Positions 10,121-45,919 of a DNA stretch of 64,000 nt are shown piece by piece. The stretch is from Escherichia coli (lineage in GTDB: Bacteria; Pseudomonadota; Gammaproteobacteria; Enterobacterales; Enterobacteriaceae). The translations under genes and the position numbers were made by a program. Each line of letters starts with the position of its first letter. The stretch's first letter is position 1. The notes beneath the pieces are model-generated. The model had not been told where the DNA came from. It ran no database searches and saw nothing but the letters and a program-made list of their open reading frames with translations. The stretch lies in assembly GCF_029227855.1 (NCBI RefSeq), contig NZ_CP074356.1. One strand, written 5' to 3'.

Positions 10121-12361
10121 ATGGCAAAAAACACATCTTGCGGTGTCCAACTGCGTATTCGTGGCAAAGTGCAGGGCGTCGGTTTTCGTCCGTTTGTCTG
10201 GCAGCTGGCACAGCAATTAAATCTTCACGGCGATGTCTGTAATGACGGCGATGGCGTAGAAGTCCGGCTGCTGGAAGACCCGGAAACGTTTCTTGTGCAG
10301 TTGCATCAGCACTGCCCGCCGCTGGCGCGTATTGATAGCGTCGAGCGTGAGCCGTTTATCTGGTCACAGCCGCCCACCGAGTTCACCATCCGCCAGAGCA
10401 CAGGCGGCACCATGAATACGCAAATTGTTCCCGATGCCGCCACTTGCCCTGCCTGTCTTGCCGAAATGAATACCCCAGGCGAGCGGCGTTATCGTTATCC
10501 GTTTATCAACTGTACTCACTGTGGCCCGCGTTTCACCATTATTCGCGCCATGCCTTACGACCGCCCGTTTACCGTAATGGCGGCGTTTCCGCTGTGTCCA
10601 GCCTGTGATAAAGAGTACCGCGACCCGCTCGATCGTCGCTTCCACGCCCAGCCGGTGGCCTGCCCAGAGTGTGGCCCACATCTTGAATGGGTAAGTCATG
10701 GTGAACATGCGGAACAAGAGGCGGCATTACAGGCAGCTATCGCACAGTTAAAAATGGGCAACATTGTCGCCATCAAAGGGATTGGCGGATTTCATCTTGC
10801 CTGCGATGCACGTAACAGTAACGCGGTGGCGACACTGCGGGCGCGCAAACATCGCCCGGCGAAACCGCTGGCGGTTATGTTGCCAGTGGCAGAAGGTTTA
10901 CCAGACGCTGCCCGTCAGTTGCTTACCACACCCGCCGCGCCGATTGTGCTGGTGGATAAAAAATATGTACCTGAGCTTTGTGATGATATCGCCCCTGGCC
11001 TTAACGAAGTCGGGGTAATGTTGCCTGCGAACCCGCTCCAGCATTTGCTGTTACAGGAACTGCAATGCCCGCTGGTGATGACCTCCGGTAACCTGAGCGG
11101 TAAACCACCGGCTATCAGCAACGAACAGGCGCTGGCGGATTTGCAGGGCATTGCCGACGGATTCTTGATACATAACCGCGACATCGTGCAGCGGATGGAT
11201 GATTCGGTGGTGCGCGAAAGCGGCGAAATGCTGCGCCGTTCGCGGGGGTATGTGCCGGATGCGCTGGCTTTGCCTCCGGGTTTTAAAAATGTTCCGCCTG
11301 TGCTGTGTCTCGGCGCGGATCTGAAAAACACCTTCTGCCTGGTGCGCGGCGAACAAGCGGTGTTGAGTCAGCATCTGGGCGATTTAAGTGACGATGGCAT
11401 CCAGATGCAGTGGCGCGAAGCGTTACGCCTGATGCAAAACATCTACGATTTTACCCCGCAATACGTTGTGCATGACCTGCATCCGGGCTATGTCTCCAGC
11501 CAGTGGGCGCGCGAAATGAATCTGCCGACGCAAACGGTGCTGCATCATCATGCTCATGCGGCGGCGTGTCTGGCAGAACATCACTGGCCACTGGATGGCG
11601 GTGATGTCATTGCGTTGACGCTCGACGGTATCGGTATGGGGGAGAACGGCGCTTTATGGGGCGGCGAGTGCCTGCGGGTGAACTATCGCGAATGCCAGCA
11701 CCTGGGCGGCTTGCCTGCAGTGGCGCTTGCTGGGGGCGATTTGGCGGCGAAGCAGCCGTGGCGTAACCTGCTGGCGCAGTGCCTGCGCTTTGTGCCGGAG
11801 TGGCAGAATTACCCTGAAACGGCAAGTGTGCAACAGCAAAACTGGAGCGTGCTGGCGCGGGCCATTGAGCGTGGAATTAACGCGCCGCTGGCGTCATCGT
11901 GTGGGCGTTTGTTCGATGCTGTGGCGGCGGCACTGGGCTGTGCGCCAGCCACGTTAAGCTATGAAGGTGAAGCGGCTTGTGCTCTGGAGGCGCTAGCAGC
12001 TTCATGCGACGGAGTGACGCATCCGGTGACGATACCGCTGGTGGACAATCAACTGGATCTCGCCACTTTCTGGCAGCAGTGGCTGAACTGGCAGGCACCG
12101 GTTAATCAACGCGCGTGGGCGTTTCATGATGCGCTGGCGCAGGGTTTTGCCGCGTTGATGCGTGAGCAGGCCACGATGCGTGGTATCACTACGCTGGTAT
12201 TTAGCGGCGGGGTTATTCATAACCGTTTGCTGCGTGCACGTCTGGCGCATTATCTCGCTGATTTCACATTGCTCTTTCCACAGAGTTTACCGGCGGGTGA
12301 TGGCGGCTTGTCTCTGGGGCAGGGGGTTATTGCTGCGGCGCGCATCCTGCATGCTGCATAG
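10121..12361 (+). CDS. hypF: Carbamoyltransferase HypF (NiFe hydrogenase maturation)
   Basis: Acylphosphatase-like N-terminus, zinc-finger CxxC pairs, YrdC and Kae1-like regions; start chosen at MAKNTSCG (ORF track starts at 10049). Confidence 0.88.
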
Positions 12362-12404
12362 TGGTGGATGTGGCGTAACTAAGCGTAAAAAGAGCGCGGA
12401 CAGT

Positions 12405-12427
12405 CCCCTCGCCCTTTGGGCGAGGGA
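12405..12427. terminator. Hairpin (cccctcgccc-ttt-gggcgaggg) between convergent hypF and norW; candidate bidirectional terminator
   Basis: 9-bp GC-rich stem read from sequence; A-run follows. Confidence 0.45.
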
Positions 12428-12438
12428 GAAAACCATGC

Positions 12439-13572
12439 CTACACCGGCAACGTTTTCAACAATCCAAACGCCTCTTTCATCCGATCCTCACTGACCACAA
12501 AGGCGCGAAGCTGGTCTGTATCGTCAACGCCGCGTGCCACCATTCCCTGATGTTCGGTACAAATCTGCCAGCGCAAATCCCGACGCTGGGTTTCGCCTGC
12601 CAGATGCAGCGGTAATTCCGGCGTTTTGATTTTCACCAGCATCGCAGGGAGTTTCAGCGGCGTGTTATTGCCGAGAAGATTTTTTGCCAGCACCATCGCG
12701 CTAAGTTGAATCGGCTGGAGGAACGGCAATACCTGACCGTTAATTTCCGCGCAATCGCCCAGCGCATAAATATCGGCATTACTGGTTTGCAGATAACTAT
12801 CGACGCAAACGCCGCGATTAATCGTCAGCCCGGCGCGTCGTGCCAGGGCGGTTTCCGGGCGCAGCCCGGTGGCGGCAATTACCGCATCCACTTCGATGCT
12901 GCGCTGGCGGTCCAGCGTTGCCAGAATGCCAGAATCCGTTTTTTCCAGCCCCTGCAACTGAGATTTCAACAGCAGATGAACGCCCATCTCCGTCAACCGA
13001 TGCTGCAAGCGGCTGCTTACTTCCGGTGGCATTAACGACGCCAGAATACTGGCAGCGTTGTCGATTAGCGTGACCGCTTTGCCTGCACGACAAAAATCCA
13101 TCGCCAGTTCGCTACCAATCAAGCCACCGCCAACAATCAACACGCGTCGGGCATCCCGCAGTTGCGTTTCACAGGCGCGATACTCTTGCTGACTATTTAA
13201 CGTCAGCATTAACTCACGCCCAGGCACTGGCGGGACAAAGGCACTGGCACCAGTTGCCAGCACCAGCTTGTCGTATTGCCACTGATTATTCTGGCTTTTC
13301 ACCACATGGGCTTCGGCATCGATATCCGTTACCCAGGTGTGCGGAAACAGGCGCAGATTAAACTTCTCGGCAAATTCACCTGCCGTCTGGCGGGTAAGGT
13401 CATCGGCACGTTGCCCCTGGCTGATAACATGGCTGAGGTCAGGTTTGTTGTACTCATCCATGCTGTCGGCGGCAATCAGGGTTAATGGAATACTGGCGTC
13501 CTGTTTGCGAATATTTTTCACCAGTTGGCGGGCGGCGAAGCCCGAACCAATGATCACAATGCCGTTGCTCAT
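12439..13572 (-). CDS. norW: NADH:flavorubredoxin reductase
   Basis: 377 aa, FAD/NAD-binding GxGxxG motifs; overlaps norV stop. Confidence 0.92.
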
Positions 13573-15008
13573 TTTGCCTCCGATGCCAGTTCGTCAAAGA
13601 CGTCTTTGCCGAGAGAGCATTCCGGGCACAGGAAGTTATCCGGGACTTCACTCCACGGCGTTCCTGGCGCAACGTCCTGCATTGGCTCGCCTTTTGCCGG
13701 ATCGTAAATCCACTGGCAGACGCTGCACTGCATCCGTGGGCCGAGGTCAGCCGTCGTGGTGGCAGAGGTTTCTTCTTTAACCACCGTATTCACCGTGCTC
13801 TGCGGCAGCGGCGCGAGCGCCCACTGACGGGCGATTTCGCGACCGTGTTCACGACATAGCTCCAGAGCGTCCTGGTCCGGTCGCCATTTGGCTTTCAGGC
13901 TAAGCGACATTTCGAAACCTGCATCCTGCAGGCGTGTGGAAAGACGATCCACCGCACCGCCGCTCCAGCCGTGAGATCCGAAAGCACTGGCGCGTTTGTT
14001 ACGGAAGCGTAAACCAGTCATCTCCTCCACCAGCCCGGCGATTTTCGGCATCATCACGTTATTCATCGTCGAAGTGCCGACCAGCACGCCTTTTGAGCGG
14101 AATACATTGGTCAGGATTTCGTTTTTATCGCTTCGGGCGACGTTGAAAATTTTCACCGCCACGCGTGGGTCGGTTTCCGCAATCCCCTGGGCAATAGCGT
14201 CAGCCATCATGCGGGTGTTATTCGACATGGTGTCGTAGAAAATGGTGATTCTGTCTTCCTGATAATCCGCCGCCCATTTCAGGTACAGCTCGACAATTTG
14301 CGTCGGGTTATCGCGCCATACCACGCCGTGAGAGGTCGCTATCATATCGACTGGTAAGTTAAAGCCCAGGATCTCGGTAATTTTCGGCGTTACCAGGCGG
14401 CTGAACGGCGTCAGGATATTGGCGTAGTAACGCTGGCACTGCTCGAAAAGCTCCGTCTGATCCACTTCATCGTTGAACAGATGCTCGTCGCAGTAGTGCT
14501 GACCGAAAGCATCGTTACTGAATAGCACCGCGTCGCCTGTCAGGTAAGTCATCATGCTGTCCGGCCAGTGCAGCATTGGCGTTTCGACAAAAATGAGCTG
14601 TTTGCCGTTGCCGATATCCAGCGTGTCGCCAGTTTTCACCACATTAAAATTCCACTCCGGATGATGGTGATGACCATTTATCGAGTCGATAGCGTTGGCA
14701 GTACAGTAAATCGGCGTATCGGGAATTTGCGCCATCAGTTCGGTCAGCGCCCCGGCGTGGTCCTCTTCTGCATGGTTAATCACGATGTAATCGATATCCG
14801 CCAGATCGATTTCATTACGCAGGTTCTGCACAAATTCGCGGCTGAATTTATGGTCAACGGTGTCGATCAGCACGTTTTTTTCTTCGCGGATGAGGTAGCT
14901 GTTGTAGCTGCTGCCGCGCAGCGTTTTATATTCTGTGCCGTGAAAATCACGCACTTCCCAGTCACGTTGACCAACCCAATGAATGTTATTTTTCACCACA
15001 ATAGACAT
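13569..15008 (-). CDS. norV: Anaerobic nitric oxide reductase flavorubredoxin
   Basis: 479 aa; metallo-beta-lactamase and flavodoxin domains plus C-terminal rubredoxin CxxC...CPxC. Confidence 0.95.
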
Positions 15009-15053
15009 AGCAACCTCAATTTATTCAGCGTGTTCTAAAAAGATGTCTTGCTA

Positions 15054-15072
15054 ATTGCAGATTGCGTGCCAG
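15054..15072 (-). promoter_or_regulatory. Sigma-54 promoter of norVW (TGGCAC-N5-CTGCA on minus strand)
   Basis: Reverse complement of ctaattgcagattgcgtgccag gives a consensus -24/-12 element upstream of norV. Confidence 0.7.
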
Positions 15073-15126
15073 TTTTTTATCTAATTGATTTTTATGTATA
15101 AATTAATTCATGCTCATTAATGAGTA

Positions 15127-15182
15127 GTCAAAATGACTATCAATCAAATGGTCGATATGACAATATCTATAGTCAAATTGAC
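15127..15182. promoter_or_regulatory. Three NorR enhancer sites (GT-N7-AC) in the norR-norV intergenic region
   Basis: gtcaaaatgac (15127-15137), gtcgatatgac (15151-15161), gtcaaattgac (15172-15182). Confidence 0.7.
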
Positions 15183-15194
15183 AGTGAGGCAAAG

Positions 15195-16709
15195 ATGAGT
15201 TTTTCCGTTGATGTGCTGGCGAATATCGCCATCGAATTGCAGCGTGGGATTGGTCATCAGGATCGTTTTCAGCGCCTGATCACCACGCTGCGTCAGGTGC
15301 TGGAGTGCGATGCGTCTGCGTTGCTACGTTACGACTCGCGGCAGTTTATTCCGCTTGCCATCGACGGGCTGGCGAAGGATGTACTTGGTAGACGCTTTGC
15401 GCTGGAAGGTCATCCACGGCTGGAAGCGATTGCCCGCGCGGGTGATGTGGTGCGCTTTCCCGCAGACAGCGAATTGCCCGATCCCTATGACGGTTTGATT
15501 CCCGGGCAGGAGAGTCTGAAGGTTCACGCCTGCGTTGGTCTGCCATTGTTTGCCGGACAAAACCTGATCGGCGCATTGACGCTCGACGGGATGCAGCCCG
15601 ATCAGTTCGATGTTTTCAGTGACGAAGAGTTACGGCTGATTGCTGCCCTGGCGGCGGGAGCGTTAAGCAATGCGTTGCTGATTGAACAACTGGAAAGTCA
15701 GAATATGCTGCCAGGCGATGCCGCGCCGTTTGAAGCGGTGAAACAGACGCAGATGATTGGCTTGTCGCCAGGCATGACGCAATTGAAAAAAGAGATTGAG
15801 ATTGTGGCGGCGTCCGATCTCAACGTCCTGATCAGCGGTGAGACGGGAACCGGTAAGGAGCTGGTGGCGAAAGCGATTCATGAAGCCTCGCCACGGGCGG
15901 TGAATCCGCTGGTCTATCTCAACTGTGCCGCACTGCCGGAAAGTGTGGCGGAAAGTGAACTGTTCGGGCATGTGAAAGGGGCGTTTACTGGCGCTATCAG
16001 TAACCGCAGCGGGAAGTTTGAAATGGCGGATAACGGCACACTGTTTCTCGATGAGATCGGCGAGTTGTCGTTGGCATTGCAGGCCAAGTTGCTGCGAGTG
16101 TTGCAGTATGGCGATATTCAGCGTGTTGGCGATGACCGCAGTTTGCGGGTCGATGTGCGCGTGCTGGCGGCGACTAACCGCGACTTACGCGAAGAGGTAC
16201 TGGCAGGGCGATTCCGCGCCGATTTGTTTCATCGCCTGAGCGTGTTCCCACTTTCGGTGCCGCCGCTGCGTGAGCGGGGCGATGATGTCATTCTGCTGGC
16301 GGGGTATTTCTGCGAGCAGTGTCGTTTGCGGCTGGGGCTCTCCCGCGTGGTATTAAGCGCCGGAGCGCGAAATTTACTGCAACACTACAGTTTTCCGGGA
16401 AACGTGCGCGAACTGGAACATGCTATTCATCGGGCGGTAGTACTGTCGAGAGCCACCCGCAGCGGCGATGAAGTGATTCTTGAGGCGCAACATTTTGCTT
16501 TTCCTGAGGTGACGTTGCCGCCGCCAGAAGCAGCGGCGGTGCCCGTTGTTAAGCAAAATCTGCGTGAAGCGACAGAAGCGTTCCAGCGTGAAACCATTCG
16601 CCAGGCACTGGCACAAAATCATCACAACTGGGCTGCCTGCGCGCGAATGCTGGAAACTGACGTCGCCAACCTGCATCGGCTGGCGAAACGTCTGGGATTG
16701 AAGGATTAA
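15195..16709 (+). CDS. norR: Sigma-54-dependent NO-responsive transcriptional activator
   Basis: GAF, AAA+ sigma54-activator ([14 protein letters not shown]) and C-terminal HTH; start placed downstream of the NorR sites. Confidence 0.92.
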
Positions 16710-18968: not shown

Positions 18969-20123
<1,155 letters not shown>

Positions 20124-20133
20124 GTTTCAGCCT

Positions 20134-21671
<1,538 letters not shown>

Positions 21672-33102: not shown

Positions 33103-34641
33103 TTAGTGCGCACCGCCTCCGCCGCCACCTGCGCCAAATGGCGGTTTAGCAAACCACACCAGCCCCAGCAAGACGAGGAATATCCCGGCTGACATCCAGA
33201 AGATCTCATTGGCGGAAATAATCAGCCCCTGATTGGTGATCTGCTGGGCAATCCAGCCTGATGCCTGCTGTTGCGTCATCCCAAGCCCTTCCAGTTGACT
33301 ATACATCGCCTGGGCATTCGGGTTGAACGGGTTTACCGACTCAGTCAACTGCGCATGGTGCATCGACTCGCGGTTGGTCCACATGGTGGTGGTGATGGAT
33401 GTGCCGATAGACCCCGCCAGCGTTCGCGTAAAGTTAGAGAGGCTCGATGCCGCCGCCAGTCGTTCCGGTGGCAAACCAGACAGCGTAATGGTGGTCAGCG
33501 GCATAAAGAAGCAGGCCACCGCAAAACCCTGGATAAACTGCGGCCAGGCCGACGCGCCAAAATCCATACCTGGTTCAAAGGTATAGGCACGCCAGTAGAA
33601 GCAGACGGCATACATAATAAAGCTGAAGGTTACCAGCCGCCGCATATCCAGTTTGTGCGCGAAGCGGCCGATAATCGGCGACAGGATCACCGGAATAATC
33701 CCTACCGGCGCAGAGGCCAAACCTGCCCAGGTCGCCGTGTAACCGTAGACCTCCTGCAACAACTGCGGCAGCAGAACAATCGCGCCGAAGTAGAGCATAT
33801 ACGCGAGGCTGATACACAAGCAGCCGATGGTGAAGTTGCGCGACTTAAACAACGACAGATCGACTATCGGGTTATCGTCGGTCAGCTCCCAGACAATCAG
33901 GAAGCAGATAGCCACCACCGCCACCACGGTAAGGATGATAATTTCCTGTGATGAAAACCAGTCCAGCTCTTTACCGCGGTCGAGCATAATCTGCAGGCTG
34001 CCTATACCAATAACCAGCAGTGCCAGCCCCACGGCATCAATCCGCCGCCGTTCGGTGCGGGTTTCGCGTCCGCGCAGGGTTTGCAGTGTCATCAACACCA
34101 CCGCCACGCCAATTGGCACGTTGATGAAGAATATCCAGCCCCAGTGGTAATTATCGCTGATATAACCGCCGAGGATCGGGCCGCAAATTGGCGCGACAAT
34201 CACCGTCATCGACCACAACGCCAGCGCGATCGAGCGTTTGGCTGGCGGGTAGTTATTCAGCAATAGACTTTGCGAAAGCGGGATCAACGGTCCGGCGACA
34301 ATCCCCTGAATCACGCGGAAGAAGATCAGCATATTCAGGCTGCTGGAGACACCACACGCCCACGACGCAATAGCAAAGGCGATGGTTGACCAGAGGAACA
34401 GTTTCACTTCCCCGACGCGCTTTGCCAGCCAGCCGGTAAGCGGGATCGAGATGGCATTCGCTACCCCGAAGGAAGTGATTACCCACGTTCCCTGGCTGAG
34501 CGATGAGCCCAGATTCCCGGCGATAGTGGGGATCGCCACGTTAGCAATGGTGGAGTCCAGCACCTGCATGAATGTCGCCAGTGACAGCGCAATCGTCATA
34601 ATGACCAGTTGCGCGCCTTCCAGCGGTTTTTGCTGTTGCAT
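33103..34641 (-). CDS. emrB: Multidrug efflux MFS transporter permease EmrB
   Basis: 14-TMS MFS; start chosen at MQQQKPLEGA. Confidence 0.93.
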   Translation of the reverse strand: MQQQKPLEGAQLVIMTIALSLATFMQVLDSTIANVAIPTIAGNLGSSLSQGTWVITSFGVANAISIPLTGWLAKRVGEVKLFLWSTIAFAIASWACGVSSSLNMLIFFRVIQGIVAGPLIPLSQSLLLNNYPPAKRSIALALWSMTVIVAPICGPILGGYISDNYHWGWIFFINVPIGVAVVLMTLQTLRGRETRTERRRIDAVGLALLVIGIGSLQIMLDRGKELDWFSSQEIIILTVVAVVAICFLIVWELTDDNPIVDLSLFKSRNFTIGCLCISLAYMLYFGAIVLLPQLLQEVYGYTATWAGLASAPVGIIPVILSPIIGRFAHKLDMRRLVTFSFIMYAVCFYWRAYTFEPGMDFGASAWPQFIQGFAVACFFMPLTTITLSGLPPERLAAASSLSNFTRTLAGSIGTSITTTMWTNRESMHHAQLTESVNPFNPNAQAMYSQLEGLGMTQQQASGWIAQQITNQGLIISANEIFWMSAGIFLVLLGLVWFAKPPFGAGGGGGGAH

Positions 34642-43774: not shown

Positions 43775-45919
43775 TTAAAGTGCACAGGAGACGCAGCCTT
43801 CAATTTCAGTGCCTTCCAGCGCCATCTGACGCAGGCGGATGTAATAGAGCGTTTTGATACCTTTGCGCCAGGCGTAAATCTGCGCTTTGTTGATATCGCG
43901 AGTGGTGGCGGTATCGGGGAAAAACAGCGTCAGCGACAGCCCCTGATCGACATGGCGAGTCGCTTCCGCGTAGGTGTCGATGATCTTTTCTGCGCCAATT
44001 TCGTAAGCGTCCTGATACAGCGCCAGATTCTCGTTAGTCATAAACGGGGCAGGGTAGTAAACGCGTCCTGTTTTGCCCTCTTTGCGTATCTCTACTTTCG
44101 CCACAATCGGATGAATACTCGACGTAGCATGGTTGATATAAGAGATGGAACCGGTTGGCGGCACCGCCTGGAGATTCTGGTTGTAAATGCCGTAGCGCAT
44201 CACGTCGTCGCGCAGCTGCGCCCACATCTCACGGGTAGGTAACGTAATACCGCTACGGGTAAACAGTTCGCCAACTTTCGCCGTTTTCGGCTGCCAGTTC
44301 CCTTGCAGATATTGGCTAAAATATTCACCACTGGCATAGCGTGACTGTTTGAACCCGGCGAAGGTTTCACCGCGTTCGCGCGCCAGCAACATCGAGGTAC
44401 GCAGTGCGTGCCAGGTGATGGTATAGAAATAGAGATTGGTGAAATCCAGTGCTTCCGGCGAACCATAAGCGATGCCTTCTCGCGCCAGATAGCCGTGTAA
44501 ATTCATCTGCCCCAGTCCGATGGCGTGTGAGGCGGCATTTCCGGCTTCGATGGACGGCACGCTGCGGATATGACTCATATCTGACACCGCCGTTAAACCG
44601 CGCACGGCAGTCTCTACCGTGCGGGCAAAGTCGGGGGAATCCATGGTGTGGGCAATATTCAACGAACCTAAATTGCAGGAAATATCATGGCCTGTGCGGG
44701 CATAGTCGAGATTCTCGTCATACTCTGAGGCGCTGTTAACCTGCAAAATTTCTGAGCAGAGATTGCTCATATTTATGCGCCCGGCGATAGGGTTAGCACG
44801 GTTAACCGTGTCTTCATACATGATGTAGGGATAGCCGGACTCAAACTGGATTTCTGCCAGTCGCTGGAAGAAATCACGGGCGTTGATGTATTTTTTGCGG
44901 ATGCGTTCATTGGCAACCAGTTCGGCATAGTGTTCACTGATGGCGATATCAGCAAACGGCTTGCCATAAACCCGCTCAACGTCATAAGGCGAAAACAGTG
45001 CCATCTGCGCATTCTCTTTTGCCAGATGGAAAGTAATATCCGGGATCACCACGCCCAGCGACAGTGTTTTAATGCGGATTTTCTCGTCGGCATTTTCCCG
45101 TTTCGTATCGAGATAACGCAGAATATCGGGATGATGGGCATGTAAATAGACTGCGCCAGCACCCTGACGCGCGCCGAGCTGGTTGGCATAGGAAAATGCG
45201 TCTTCCAGCATTTTCATCACCGGAATCACGCCAGAGGATTGATTTTCAATACGTTTAATTGGCGCCCCCGCTTCCCGCAGATTCGACAGCAAAAATGCCA
45301 CGCCGCCGCCGCGTTTCGACAGTTGCAGTGCGGAATTTACCGCCCGGCCAATCGACTCCATATTGTCTTCAATACGCAGCAAAAAACAGGAAACCAGTTC
45401 GCCGCGCTGCTGCTTACCACAGTTGAGGAATGTCGGTGTTGCAGGCTGAAAGCGTCCTGACAGCATCTCATCAGTGAGCTGCGCCGCCAGTGTTTCATCG
45501 CCTTGTGCCAGCGTCAGCGCCACCATCGTGACGCGATCGGCAAAATCTTCCAGATAACGCTTACCGTCGAATGTCTTCAACGTATAGCTGGTGTAAAACT
45601 TCCATGCTCCGAGGAATGTCTGGAAACGAAACCCGCTGGCGTGCGCGTGGGCAAACAGCGTAATGACAAAATCGCGAGAGTAGCGATTAAGGACACTTTC
45701 ATCATAGTAACCTTCGTTAACCAGCCAGTTCAGGCGCTGCTGCTGGCTACTGAAGGCCACACTGTTCGGACGCACATGCGTCGCAATAAAGGCGTCAACG
45801 GCCTGGCGGTCTTTATCGAACTGAATGCGACCTGCGCTATCGTAAAGGTTAAGCATCGCATTCAGAGCGTGATAATCCATCGTTTCCTGCGTCAGGCGTT
45901 CTACGGTTGTCGTTGCCAA
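43775..45919 (-). CDS. nrdE: Class Ib ribonucleotide reductase alpha subunit
   Basis: 714 aa, recognised. Confidence 0.95.

What the first reader, a model, noticed from the sequence alone, without database searches (positions are those of the whole stretch)
15054..15190. Complete norR-norVW control region: sigma-54 promoter plus three NorR enhancer sites
The intergenic region shows a textbook -24/-12 element on the norV strand and three evenly spaced GT-N7-AC NorR sites. This confirms that the upstream ATG used by the ORF track for norR (15120) overlaps the enhancer and that the true norR start is at 15195.
Basis: partly seen in the sequence, partly recalled or inferred. Interest (0 to 1): 0.2.

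Follow-up and report, generated by a model that had tools for sequence, protein, structure and literature searches.

The report
Known E. coli norR–norVW control region

Summary
The window is E. coli, 100% identical here to strain O139:H1 W13-16.

**What is there**
- The 186-bp gap between norV (- strand, ATG at 15008) and norR (+ strand) carries a sigma-54 promoter, TGGCACGCAATCTGCA (15071->15056, - strand).
- It also carries three NorR boxes, GTC-N5-GAC, at 15127-37, 15151-61 and 15172-82.
- The boxes are identical to the K-12 sites that Tucker et al. (NAR 2010) mutated and showed to be individually essential.

**Conservation**
- Across 79 orthologous Enterobacterales loci, 77 keep exactly three boxes.
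- Box spacing is invariant at 24 and 21 bp, so it is regular but not strictly "even".
- The -24 box lies 54-57 bp from site 1 in 78 of 79 loci.

**The norR start is 15195**
- RefSeq starts norR at this base.
- The NorR family profile begins at this methionine.
- A conserved GAGG lies 5 nt upstream.
- The stretch from 15120 shows no codon periodicity.
- About 11% of complete E. coli genomes carry an in-frame TAA inside that stretch.

- The AT-rich spacer that binds IHF.
- All nine differences from K-12 fall in that spacer. This strain carries a minority allele (about 3.6% of genomes) with a better IHF-type core.

**Verdict:** already known, low interest.

The parts
12439..13572 (-). norW, NADH:flavorubredoxin reductase; second gene of the regulated operon
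   Evidence: NCBIfam equivalog NF003437, 681.7 bits; RefSeq annotation of the identical strain
13569..15008 (-). norV, flavorubredoxin NO reductase (479 aa, intact); first gene of the regulated operon
   Evidence: NCBIfam equivalog NF003954, 1047 bits, full length; RefSeq annotation
15043..15045 (-). Inferred norV transcription start (5'UTR about 35-37 nt)
   Evidence: Back-calculated from published DMS protection of G residues at -137 to -84 (PMC2831303), mapped onto the C/G positions of sites 1 and 3. Inference, not measured here.
15056..15071 (-). Sigma-54 (-24/-12) promoter of norVW: TGGCACGCAATCTGCA
   Evidence: TGGCAC/TGGCAT is found in all 79 orthologous loci at 54-57 bp from site 1. 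The orthologous Salmonella site is bound by sigma-54 in ChIP-chip. RpoN gSELEX peak in the norR/norV spacer.
15072..15126 (.). AT-rich (82% A+T) looping spacer between promoter and enhancer. All 9 differences from K-12 lie here (15083-15114).
   Evidence: Length is conserved (54-57 bp) but sequence is variable across genera. IHF is reported to bind between the transcription start and the enhancers.
15078..15090 (-). IHF-type core AATCAATTAGATA (1 mismatch to WATCAANNNNTTR); predicted promoter-proximal IHF site
   Evidence: A core at the same offset and strand is present in 64 of 80 loci, but not in K-12-type Escherichia alleles. Binding is not tested here.
15120..15122 (+). Spurious in-frame upstream ATG that gives the 529-aa 'longest ORF'; not the norR start
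   Evidence: There is no Shine-Dalgarno upstream. It reads GTG or ATT in close Escherichia relatives, and in-frame stops lie downstream of it in relatives and in 615 E. coli records.
15127..15137 (.). NorR enhancer site 1, GTCAAAATGAC (centre about -87)
   Evidence: Identical to the site mutated by primer Site1 in PMC2831303. Conserved at -68 from the norR ATG in 77 of 79 loci.
15151..15161 (.). NorR enhancer site 2, GTCGATATGAC (centre about -111)
   Evidence: It lies 24 bp from site 1 in 77 of 77 loci.
15172..15182 (.). NorR enhancer site 3, GTCAAATTGAC (centre about -132); ends 12 bp before the norR ATG
   Evidence: It lies 21 bp from site 2 in 76 of 77 loci.
15186..15189 (+). norR Shine-Dalgarno GAGG, 5 nt before the ATG
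   Evidence: TGAGG is near-invariant in 73 aligned loci.
15195..16709 (+). norR, NO-sensing sigma-54 enhancer-binding protein, 504 aa
   Evidence: NCBIfam equivalog NF003451, 825 bits, residues 2-503 on profile 3-511/512. RefSeq start at this base. R75, D96, D99, C113, D131, GAFTGA at 262 and Walker B are present.

Best explanation
This is the divergent norR-norVW control region of E. coli.

Proposed mechanism:
1. NorR is made from the ATG at 15195.
2. NorR dimers bind the three inverted repeats at 15127-15182 and assemble there into an inactive hexamer.
3. IHF bends the AT-rich 55-bp spacer. This brings the complex next to sigma-54 RNA polymerase, which sits as a closed complex on TGGCAC-N5-CTGCA (15071-15056).
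4. Nitric oxide binds the non-haem iron in the NorR GAF domain and releases the AAA+ domain.
5. ATP hydrolysis then opens the promoter, and norVW is transcribed from about 15045 leftwards.
6. Site 3 ends 12 bp before the norR start codon, so the same bound complex is positioned to modulate norR expression.

Shown here: the sequence elements, their identity to the experimentally defined K-12 sites, their strict positional conservation, the regulator's defining residues, and the norR start.

Taken from the literature: binding, the requirement for all three sites, the IHF role and the NO sensing.

Inferred: the exact transcription start, the exact IHF core, and autoregulation through site overlap.
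For: - Sequence elements are at the stated coordinates.
- The genes are NorR/NorV/NorW equivalogs.
- The window is E. coli, and RefSeq annotates norR from the base equal to 15195.
- The three boxes and their flanks equal the wild-type sequence behind the mutagenic primers of Tucker et al. 2010. That work showed each site is essential in vivo and needed for ATPase and open-complex formation.
- 77 of 79 orthologous loci have three boxes, with 24/21-bp spacing and a -24 box 54-57 bp away.
- The box cluster is far beyond chance.
- Sigma-54 ChIP in Salmonella and RpoN gSELEX in K-12 both hit this promoter.
- NorR gSELEX finds only this spacer in K-12.
- NorR has the published iron ligands and GAFTGA.
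- For the start codon: profile alignment, conserved GAGG and no 3-periodicity, variable in-frame stops, and TAA at -51 in 615 E. coli records with norR still annotated normally.
Against: - Nothing contradicts it.
- No experiment exists on this strain's allele.
- The -24/-12 pattern alone is not statistically distinctive in 64 kb.
- The primary mapping papers (Tucker 2004, Hutchings 2002, Gardner 2003) were not available. The transcription start is therefore back-calculated to within 2 nt, and the IHF site positions are predicted, not read from the source.
- No sigma-70 promoter for norR was found by consensus scan on the + strand.
Confidence: 0.96

Rival explanations
1. norR really starts at the upstream ATG (15120) and encodes a 529-aa protein, so the three boxes lie inside coding sequence.
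For: In this strain and in K-12 the frame from 15120 is open, and the ORF listing reports it as the longest ORF.
Against: - No Shine-Dalgarno lies before 15120, but a conserved GAGG lies before 15195.
- The NorR profile starts at the 15195 methionine.
- The ATG reads GTG or ATT in Escherichia sp. E1V33, E. coli SCPM and E. albertii.
- In-frame stops occur at varied positions in most of the 80 loci.
- 615 E. coli records have TAA at -51 with a normal norR annotation.
- There is no codon periodicity in conservation.
Confidence: 0.02
2. The three boxes serve mainly as an operator for repression of norR, not as an enhancer for norVW.
For: Site 3 ends 12 bp before the norR ATG, so bound NorR must overlap the norR promoter or leader. 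Papers state that NorR regulates norR as well.
Against: Mutating any single box abolishes norV-lacZ induction, ATPase stimulation and open-complex formation. The fixed 54-57-bp distance to the -24 box across genera points to a promoter-directed geometry. The two roles are compatible, so this is an addition rather than an alternative.
Confidence: 0.02

Closest known systems
E. coli K-12 norR-norVW intergenic region (Tucker et al. 2004 J Bacteriol; Tucker et al. 2010 NAR, PMC2831303)
   Same: The same locus in another strain. The promoter, all three NorR boxes with their flanks, the Shine-Dalgarno, both start codons and the 186-bp length are identical.
   Different: There are nine substitutions, all in 15083-15114 within the AT-rich spacer. 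The window's allele is a minority one: at least 95% identical in about 195 of 5,426 genomes. It has an IHF-type core with 1 mismatch where K-12 has 2 or more.
Salmonella enterica norV promoter (sigma-54 ChIP-chip, Samuels et al. 2013, PMC3844500)
   Same: Orthologous arrangement with the same box offsets and spacing. The promoter is TGGCACACTAGCTGCAAT in LT2 versus TGGCACGCAATCTGCAAT here.
   Different: The spacer sequence is unrelated apart from the IHF-type core. An in-frame ATG at -30 is present in Salmonella and many other genera but absent in Escherichia.
Other IHF-assisted sigma-54 enhancer systems (the bEBP class: e.g. NifA-nifH, NtrC-glnHp2, XylR-Pu; from established knowledge)
   Same: An upstream activator sequence about 80-140 bp from the start, an IHF bend between it and a -24/-12 promoter, and an AAA+ activator with a GAFTGA loop.
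   Different: NorR needs three sites, each essential, as a scaffold for a pre-assembled hexamer. It is controlled by NO binding to a GAF-domain iron rather than by phosphorylation.

Membership tests
Sigma-54 (RpoN) dependent promoter | GG and GC dinucleotides 10 bp apart within TGGCAC-N5-TTGCW, oriented toward the gene | tested here: met
   TGGCACGCAATCTGCA at 15071-15056 on the norV strand, with one mismatch
Sigma-54 (RpoN) dependent promoter | Conservation of the element in orthologous loci | tested here: met
   TGGCAC or TGGCAT is present in all 79 loci. The -12 element is CTGCA or TTGAT; the G is kept and the C is variable.
Sigma-54 (RpoN) dependent promoter | Transcription starts about 12 nt downstream of the GC and depends on rpoN | not testable with these tools
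   Indirect only. Published footprint numbering implies a start at 15043-15045. There is sigma-54 ChIP in Salmonella and RpoN gSELEX in K-12.
NorR enhancer (upstream activator sequence) | Three inverted repeats with core GT-N7-AC upstream of the promoter | tested here: met
   Three GTC-N5-GAC boxes at 15127-15182, identical to the K-12 sites. The cluster is beyond chance.
NorR enhancer (upstream activator sequence) | Adjacent, divergently transcribed norR and a NO-detoxification target operon | tested here: met
   norR on +, norVW on -
NorR enhancer (upstream activator sequence) | NorR binding, and a requirement for each site | not testable with these tools
   Shown for the identical K-12 sequence in PMC2831303
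NorR (NO-sensing bacterial enhancer-binding protein) | Full-length match to the NorR equivalog model above its cut-off | tested here: met
   NF003451, 825 bits versus a cut-off of 476
NorR (NO-sensing bacterial enhancer-binding protein) | GAF-domain iron ligands R75, D96, D99, C113, D131, plus the GAFTGA sigma-54 contact loop | tested here: met
   All are present; GAFTGA is at residue 262. The ligand list is from PMC4601167.
IHF binding site | WATCAANNNNTTR core with an AT-rich 5' flank, between enhancer and promoter | tested here: inconclusive
   AATCAATTAGATA at 15090-15078 has 1 mismatch, and its flank is AT-rich. The same offset is occupied in 64 of 80 loci. The K-12 allele, in which IHF binding was shown experimentally, lacks this core at 1 mismatch or fewer. 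The published site positions could not be retrieved.

The most novel reading that the evidence does not exclude
The only polymorphic part of this control region in E. coli is the IHF-bending spacer. This strain carries a minority haplotype (about 3.6% of complete genomes). Its A at 15088 restores the IHF-type core that is positionally conserved in 64 of 80 Enterobacterales loci but degraded in K-12-type alleles. If IHF occupancy differs between the haplotypes, natural E. coli lineages would differ in the gain or threshold of their NO response.
Probability: 0.2. Interest if true: 0.3.

Novelty: already known. Interest (0 to 1): 0.08.

Why it matters
The finding adds little scientifically. It re-finds a textbook NO-responsive sigma-54 switch that has been dissected biochemically and is already used as a biosensor part.

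Its practical value is for annotation. The longest-ORF call for norR (15120, 529 aa) is wrong and the 504-aa call from 15195 is right. The comparative data here give a clean, reusable argument for that.

The spacer polymorphism may interest people who tune pNorV-based NO sensors.

Tried and rejected
- **Primary papers.** The mapping papers (PMC516610, PMC135257), the Bush and Dixon review (PMC3429621) and Chen et al. 2021 are not held. Transcription-start and IHF positions come from secondary statements and back-calculation.
- **norR sigma-70 promoter.** The consensus scan found none on the + strand. It found one chance-level match on the - strand inside the boxes (15163->15136; 1 found, 1.0 expected). 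norR's own promoter stays unlocated.
- **Rfam.** The scan of 14500-15700 found nothing.
- **Second sigma-54-like match.** The match at 44951-44966 lies inside nrdE, so it is a chance hit.
- **Fourth box.** A fourth GTC-N5-GAC at 14961-14971 lies in norV codons encoding conserved GQRD, downstream of the transcription start. It is judged a coding coincidence.
- **Imported spacer.** I considered whether the spacer divergence marks an imported recombinant segment. Flanking divergence from K-12 is ordinary (about 1-14 differences per 200 bp, 9 in the intergenic bin). Alleles are mosaic among Escherichia species. The pattern therefore reads as relaxed constraint on spacer sequence, with length conserved, plus old polymorphism.

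Full report
**What is in the sequence**

The stretch 15009-15194 is the 186-bp gap between two divergent genes. On the - strand, norV (13569-15008, 479 aa) is followed by norW (12439-13572). On the + strand lies norR. All three score far above the curated cut-offs of NCBI's equivalog models: NorR 825 bits against 476, NorV 1047 against 711, NorW 682 against 392.

The window is E. coli. The 311 bp around the finding are 100% identical to strain O139:H1 W13-16 and 97.1% identical to K-12, and the region is present in 5,425 of 5,426 complete genomes.

**The claimed elements**

- On the norV strand, 15071->15056 reads TGGCACGCAATCTGCA. This is one mismatch from TGGCAC-N5-TTGCW, with GG at 15070/15069 and GC at 15058/15057.
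- Three 11-bp inverted repeats follow: GTCAAAATGAC (15127-37), GTCGATATGAC (15151-61) and GTCAAATTGAC (15172-82).
- Their start-to-start spacing is 24 and 21 bp. It is regular but not strictly even.
- ATG 15120 and ATG 15195 are in frame. The mechanical ORF list does start norR at 15120.

**Chance**

- The promoter pattern alone is not distinctive in 64 kb (2 found, 3.4 expected). The other match lies inside nrdE.
- The loose GT-N7-AC motif occurs 214 times.
- Three strict boxes within 56 bp occurred in 1 of 1000 simulated 64-kb sequences. They occurred in 0 of 200,000 shuffles of the intergenic region.

**Agreement with experiment**

- Tucker et al. 2010 (PMC2831303) changed each K-12 site from GT-N7-AC to GG-N7-CC. 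Their primers, read back to wild type, match the window base for base, flanks included.
- Each mutation abolished norV-lacZ induction, and all three sites were needed for full ATPase activity and open-complex formation.
[quoted passage not shown] Mapped onto the G/C positions of sites 1 and 3, this puts +1 at 15045 (or 15043 if the other strand was labelled). That is 12-14 nt downstream of the -12 C, as expected for this promoter class.
- Sigma-54 ChIP-chip in Salmonella LT2 assigns the norV promoter to the orthologous TGGCACACTAGCTGCAAT.
- RpoN gSELEX gives a peak in the K-12 norR/norV spacer.
- NorR gSELEX finds that spacer as its single target.

**Comparative test**

A scan of one genome per species returned 80 orthologous loci, from Escherichia to Klebsiella, Xenorhabdus and Leminorella.

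- 77 of 79 usable loci have exactly three strict boxes, at -68, -44 and -23 from the norR ATG in 73 of them.
- The 24-bp spacing holds in 77 of 77 loci and the 21-bp spacing in 76 of 77.
- A TGGCAC or TGGCAT box is present in all loci, 54-57 bp from site 1 in 78 of 79.
- The spacer between them is AT-rich (median 80%) and otherwise unconserved.
- This pattern of fixed geometry with free sequence is what a protein-bent loop predicts.

**The norR start**

- RefSeq starts norR at the base equal to 15195 in W13-16, K-12 and five other strains.
- The NorR profile aligns from residue 2 to profile position 3.
- GAGG lies 5 nt upstream and is near-invariant across genera. Nothing similar precedes 15120.
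- Conservation upstream of 15195 shows no three-base periodicity (0.90, 0.84 and 0.95 bits by codon position).
- In-frame stops interrupt the upstream frame at varied positions in most loci.
- In close relatives the 15120 ATG reads GTG or ATT.
- 615 E. coli records carry TAA at 15144-15146 with all boxes intact and a normally annotated norR.

**The regulator**

The 504-aa product has the published iron ligands R75, D96, D99, C113 and D131. It also has GAFTGA at residue 262 and a Walker B motif.

**Mechanism**

The mechanism is taken from the literature and fitted to these coordinates.

1. NorR dimers on the three boxes pre-assemble an inactive hexamer.
2. IHF bends the spacer toward the closed sigma-54 complex.
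3. NO binds the GAF-domain iron and releases the AAA+ domain.
4. ATP hydrolysis then opens the promoter.
5. Site 3 ends 12 bp before the norR ATG, which fits statements that NorR also regulates norR. I could not locate norR's own promoter.

The IHF component was omitted. All nine differences from K-12 lie in 15083-15114, inside the spacer. The other roughly 150 bp of the intergenic region are identical.

Across E. coli the spacer is at least 95% identical to the window in only about 195 genomes, and 80-90% identical in 5,212. Alleles are mosaic among Escherichia species and never change length.

The window's allele contains AATCAATTAGATA (15090->15078), one mismatch from the IHF core consensus. 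K-12 has two or more mismatches there. A core at the same offset and strand is present in 64 of 80 loci.

Whether this changes IHF occupancy or NO-response gain is untested. It is the only mildly novel angle.

**Verdict**

The feature is already known and of low interest.

Noticed in passing
window 15083-15114: All nine substitutions relative to K-12 in the norR-norV gap cluster in 32 bp of the AT-rich spacer. This haplotype is a minority one (at least 95% identical in about 195 of 5,426 complete E. coli genomes). It is mosaic with alleles of E. albertii, E. whittamii and cryptic-clade strains, and its length is always preserved.
   Followed up: partly
window 15144-15146 (codon at -51 from the norR ATG): TCA here and in K-12, but TAA in 615 E. 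coli records and in Escherichia sp. E1V33, and TAG in E. albertii. This natural polymorphism kills the spurious upstream reading frame without touching the NorR boxes.
   Followed up: yes
L019-L082 (e.g. L037 Enterobacter, L075 Klebsiella), about 130-140 bp upstream of norR: In Enterobacter, Klebsiella, Kosakonia and related genera the -12 element of the norV promoter reads TTGAT instead of CTGCA. The canonical GC becomes GA, while TGGCAC at -24 is kept.
   Followed up: partly
most non-Escherichia loci of L008-L080, position -30 from the norR ATG: An in-frame ATG 30 nt upstream of the norR start, between sites 2 and 3, is widespread outside Escherichia; the window has ATC there. It could mislead gene callers in those genera, or it could be part of the norR promoter.
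   Followed up: no
window 14961-14971: A fourth GTCACGTTGAC box lies inside norV, in codons for the conserved GQRD, downstream of the inferred transcription start. It recurs in about a third of the orthologous loci, probably because of the protein constraint.
   Followed up: partly
window 12344-12440: The last codons of hypF and the hypF/norW convergent gap are replaced relative to K-12. The HypF C-terminal tail differs, the K-12 REP-like element is absent, and a different GC-rich hairpin (CCCCTCGCCCTTTGGGCGAGGG) is present.
   Followed up: partly
window 44951-44966 (- strand): The only other match in the window within one mismatch of the sigma-54 consensus (TGGCAAGCCGTTTGCT) lies inside the nrdE coding sequence. 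It is probably chance.
   Followed up: yes
window 34595-34605: A lone, well-formed NorR-like box GTCATAATGAC lies about 19 kb from norR. It is a single copy and its context was not examined.
   Followed up: no
window about 19000-20500 (srlD upstream): A published RpoN gSELEX table lists a sigma-54 holoenzyme peak between srlB and srlD in K-12 (PMC8743547). The corresponding window region was not inspected.
   Followed up: no
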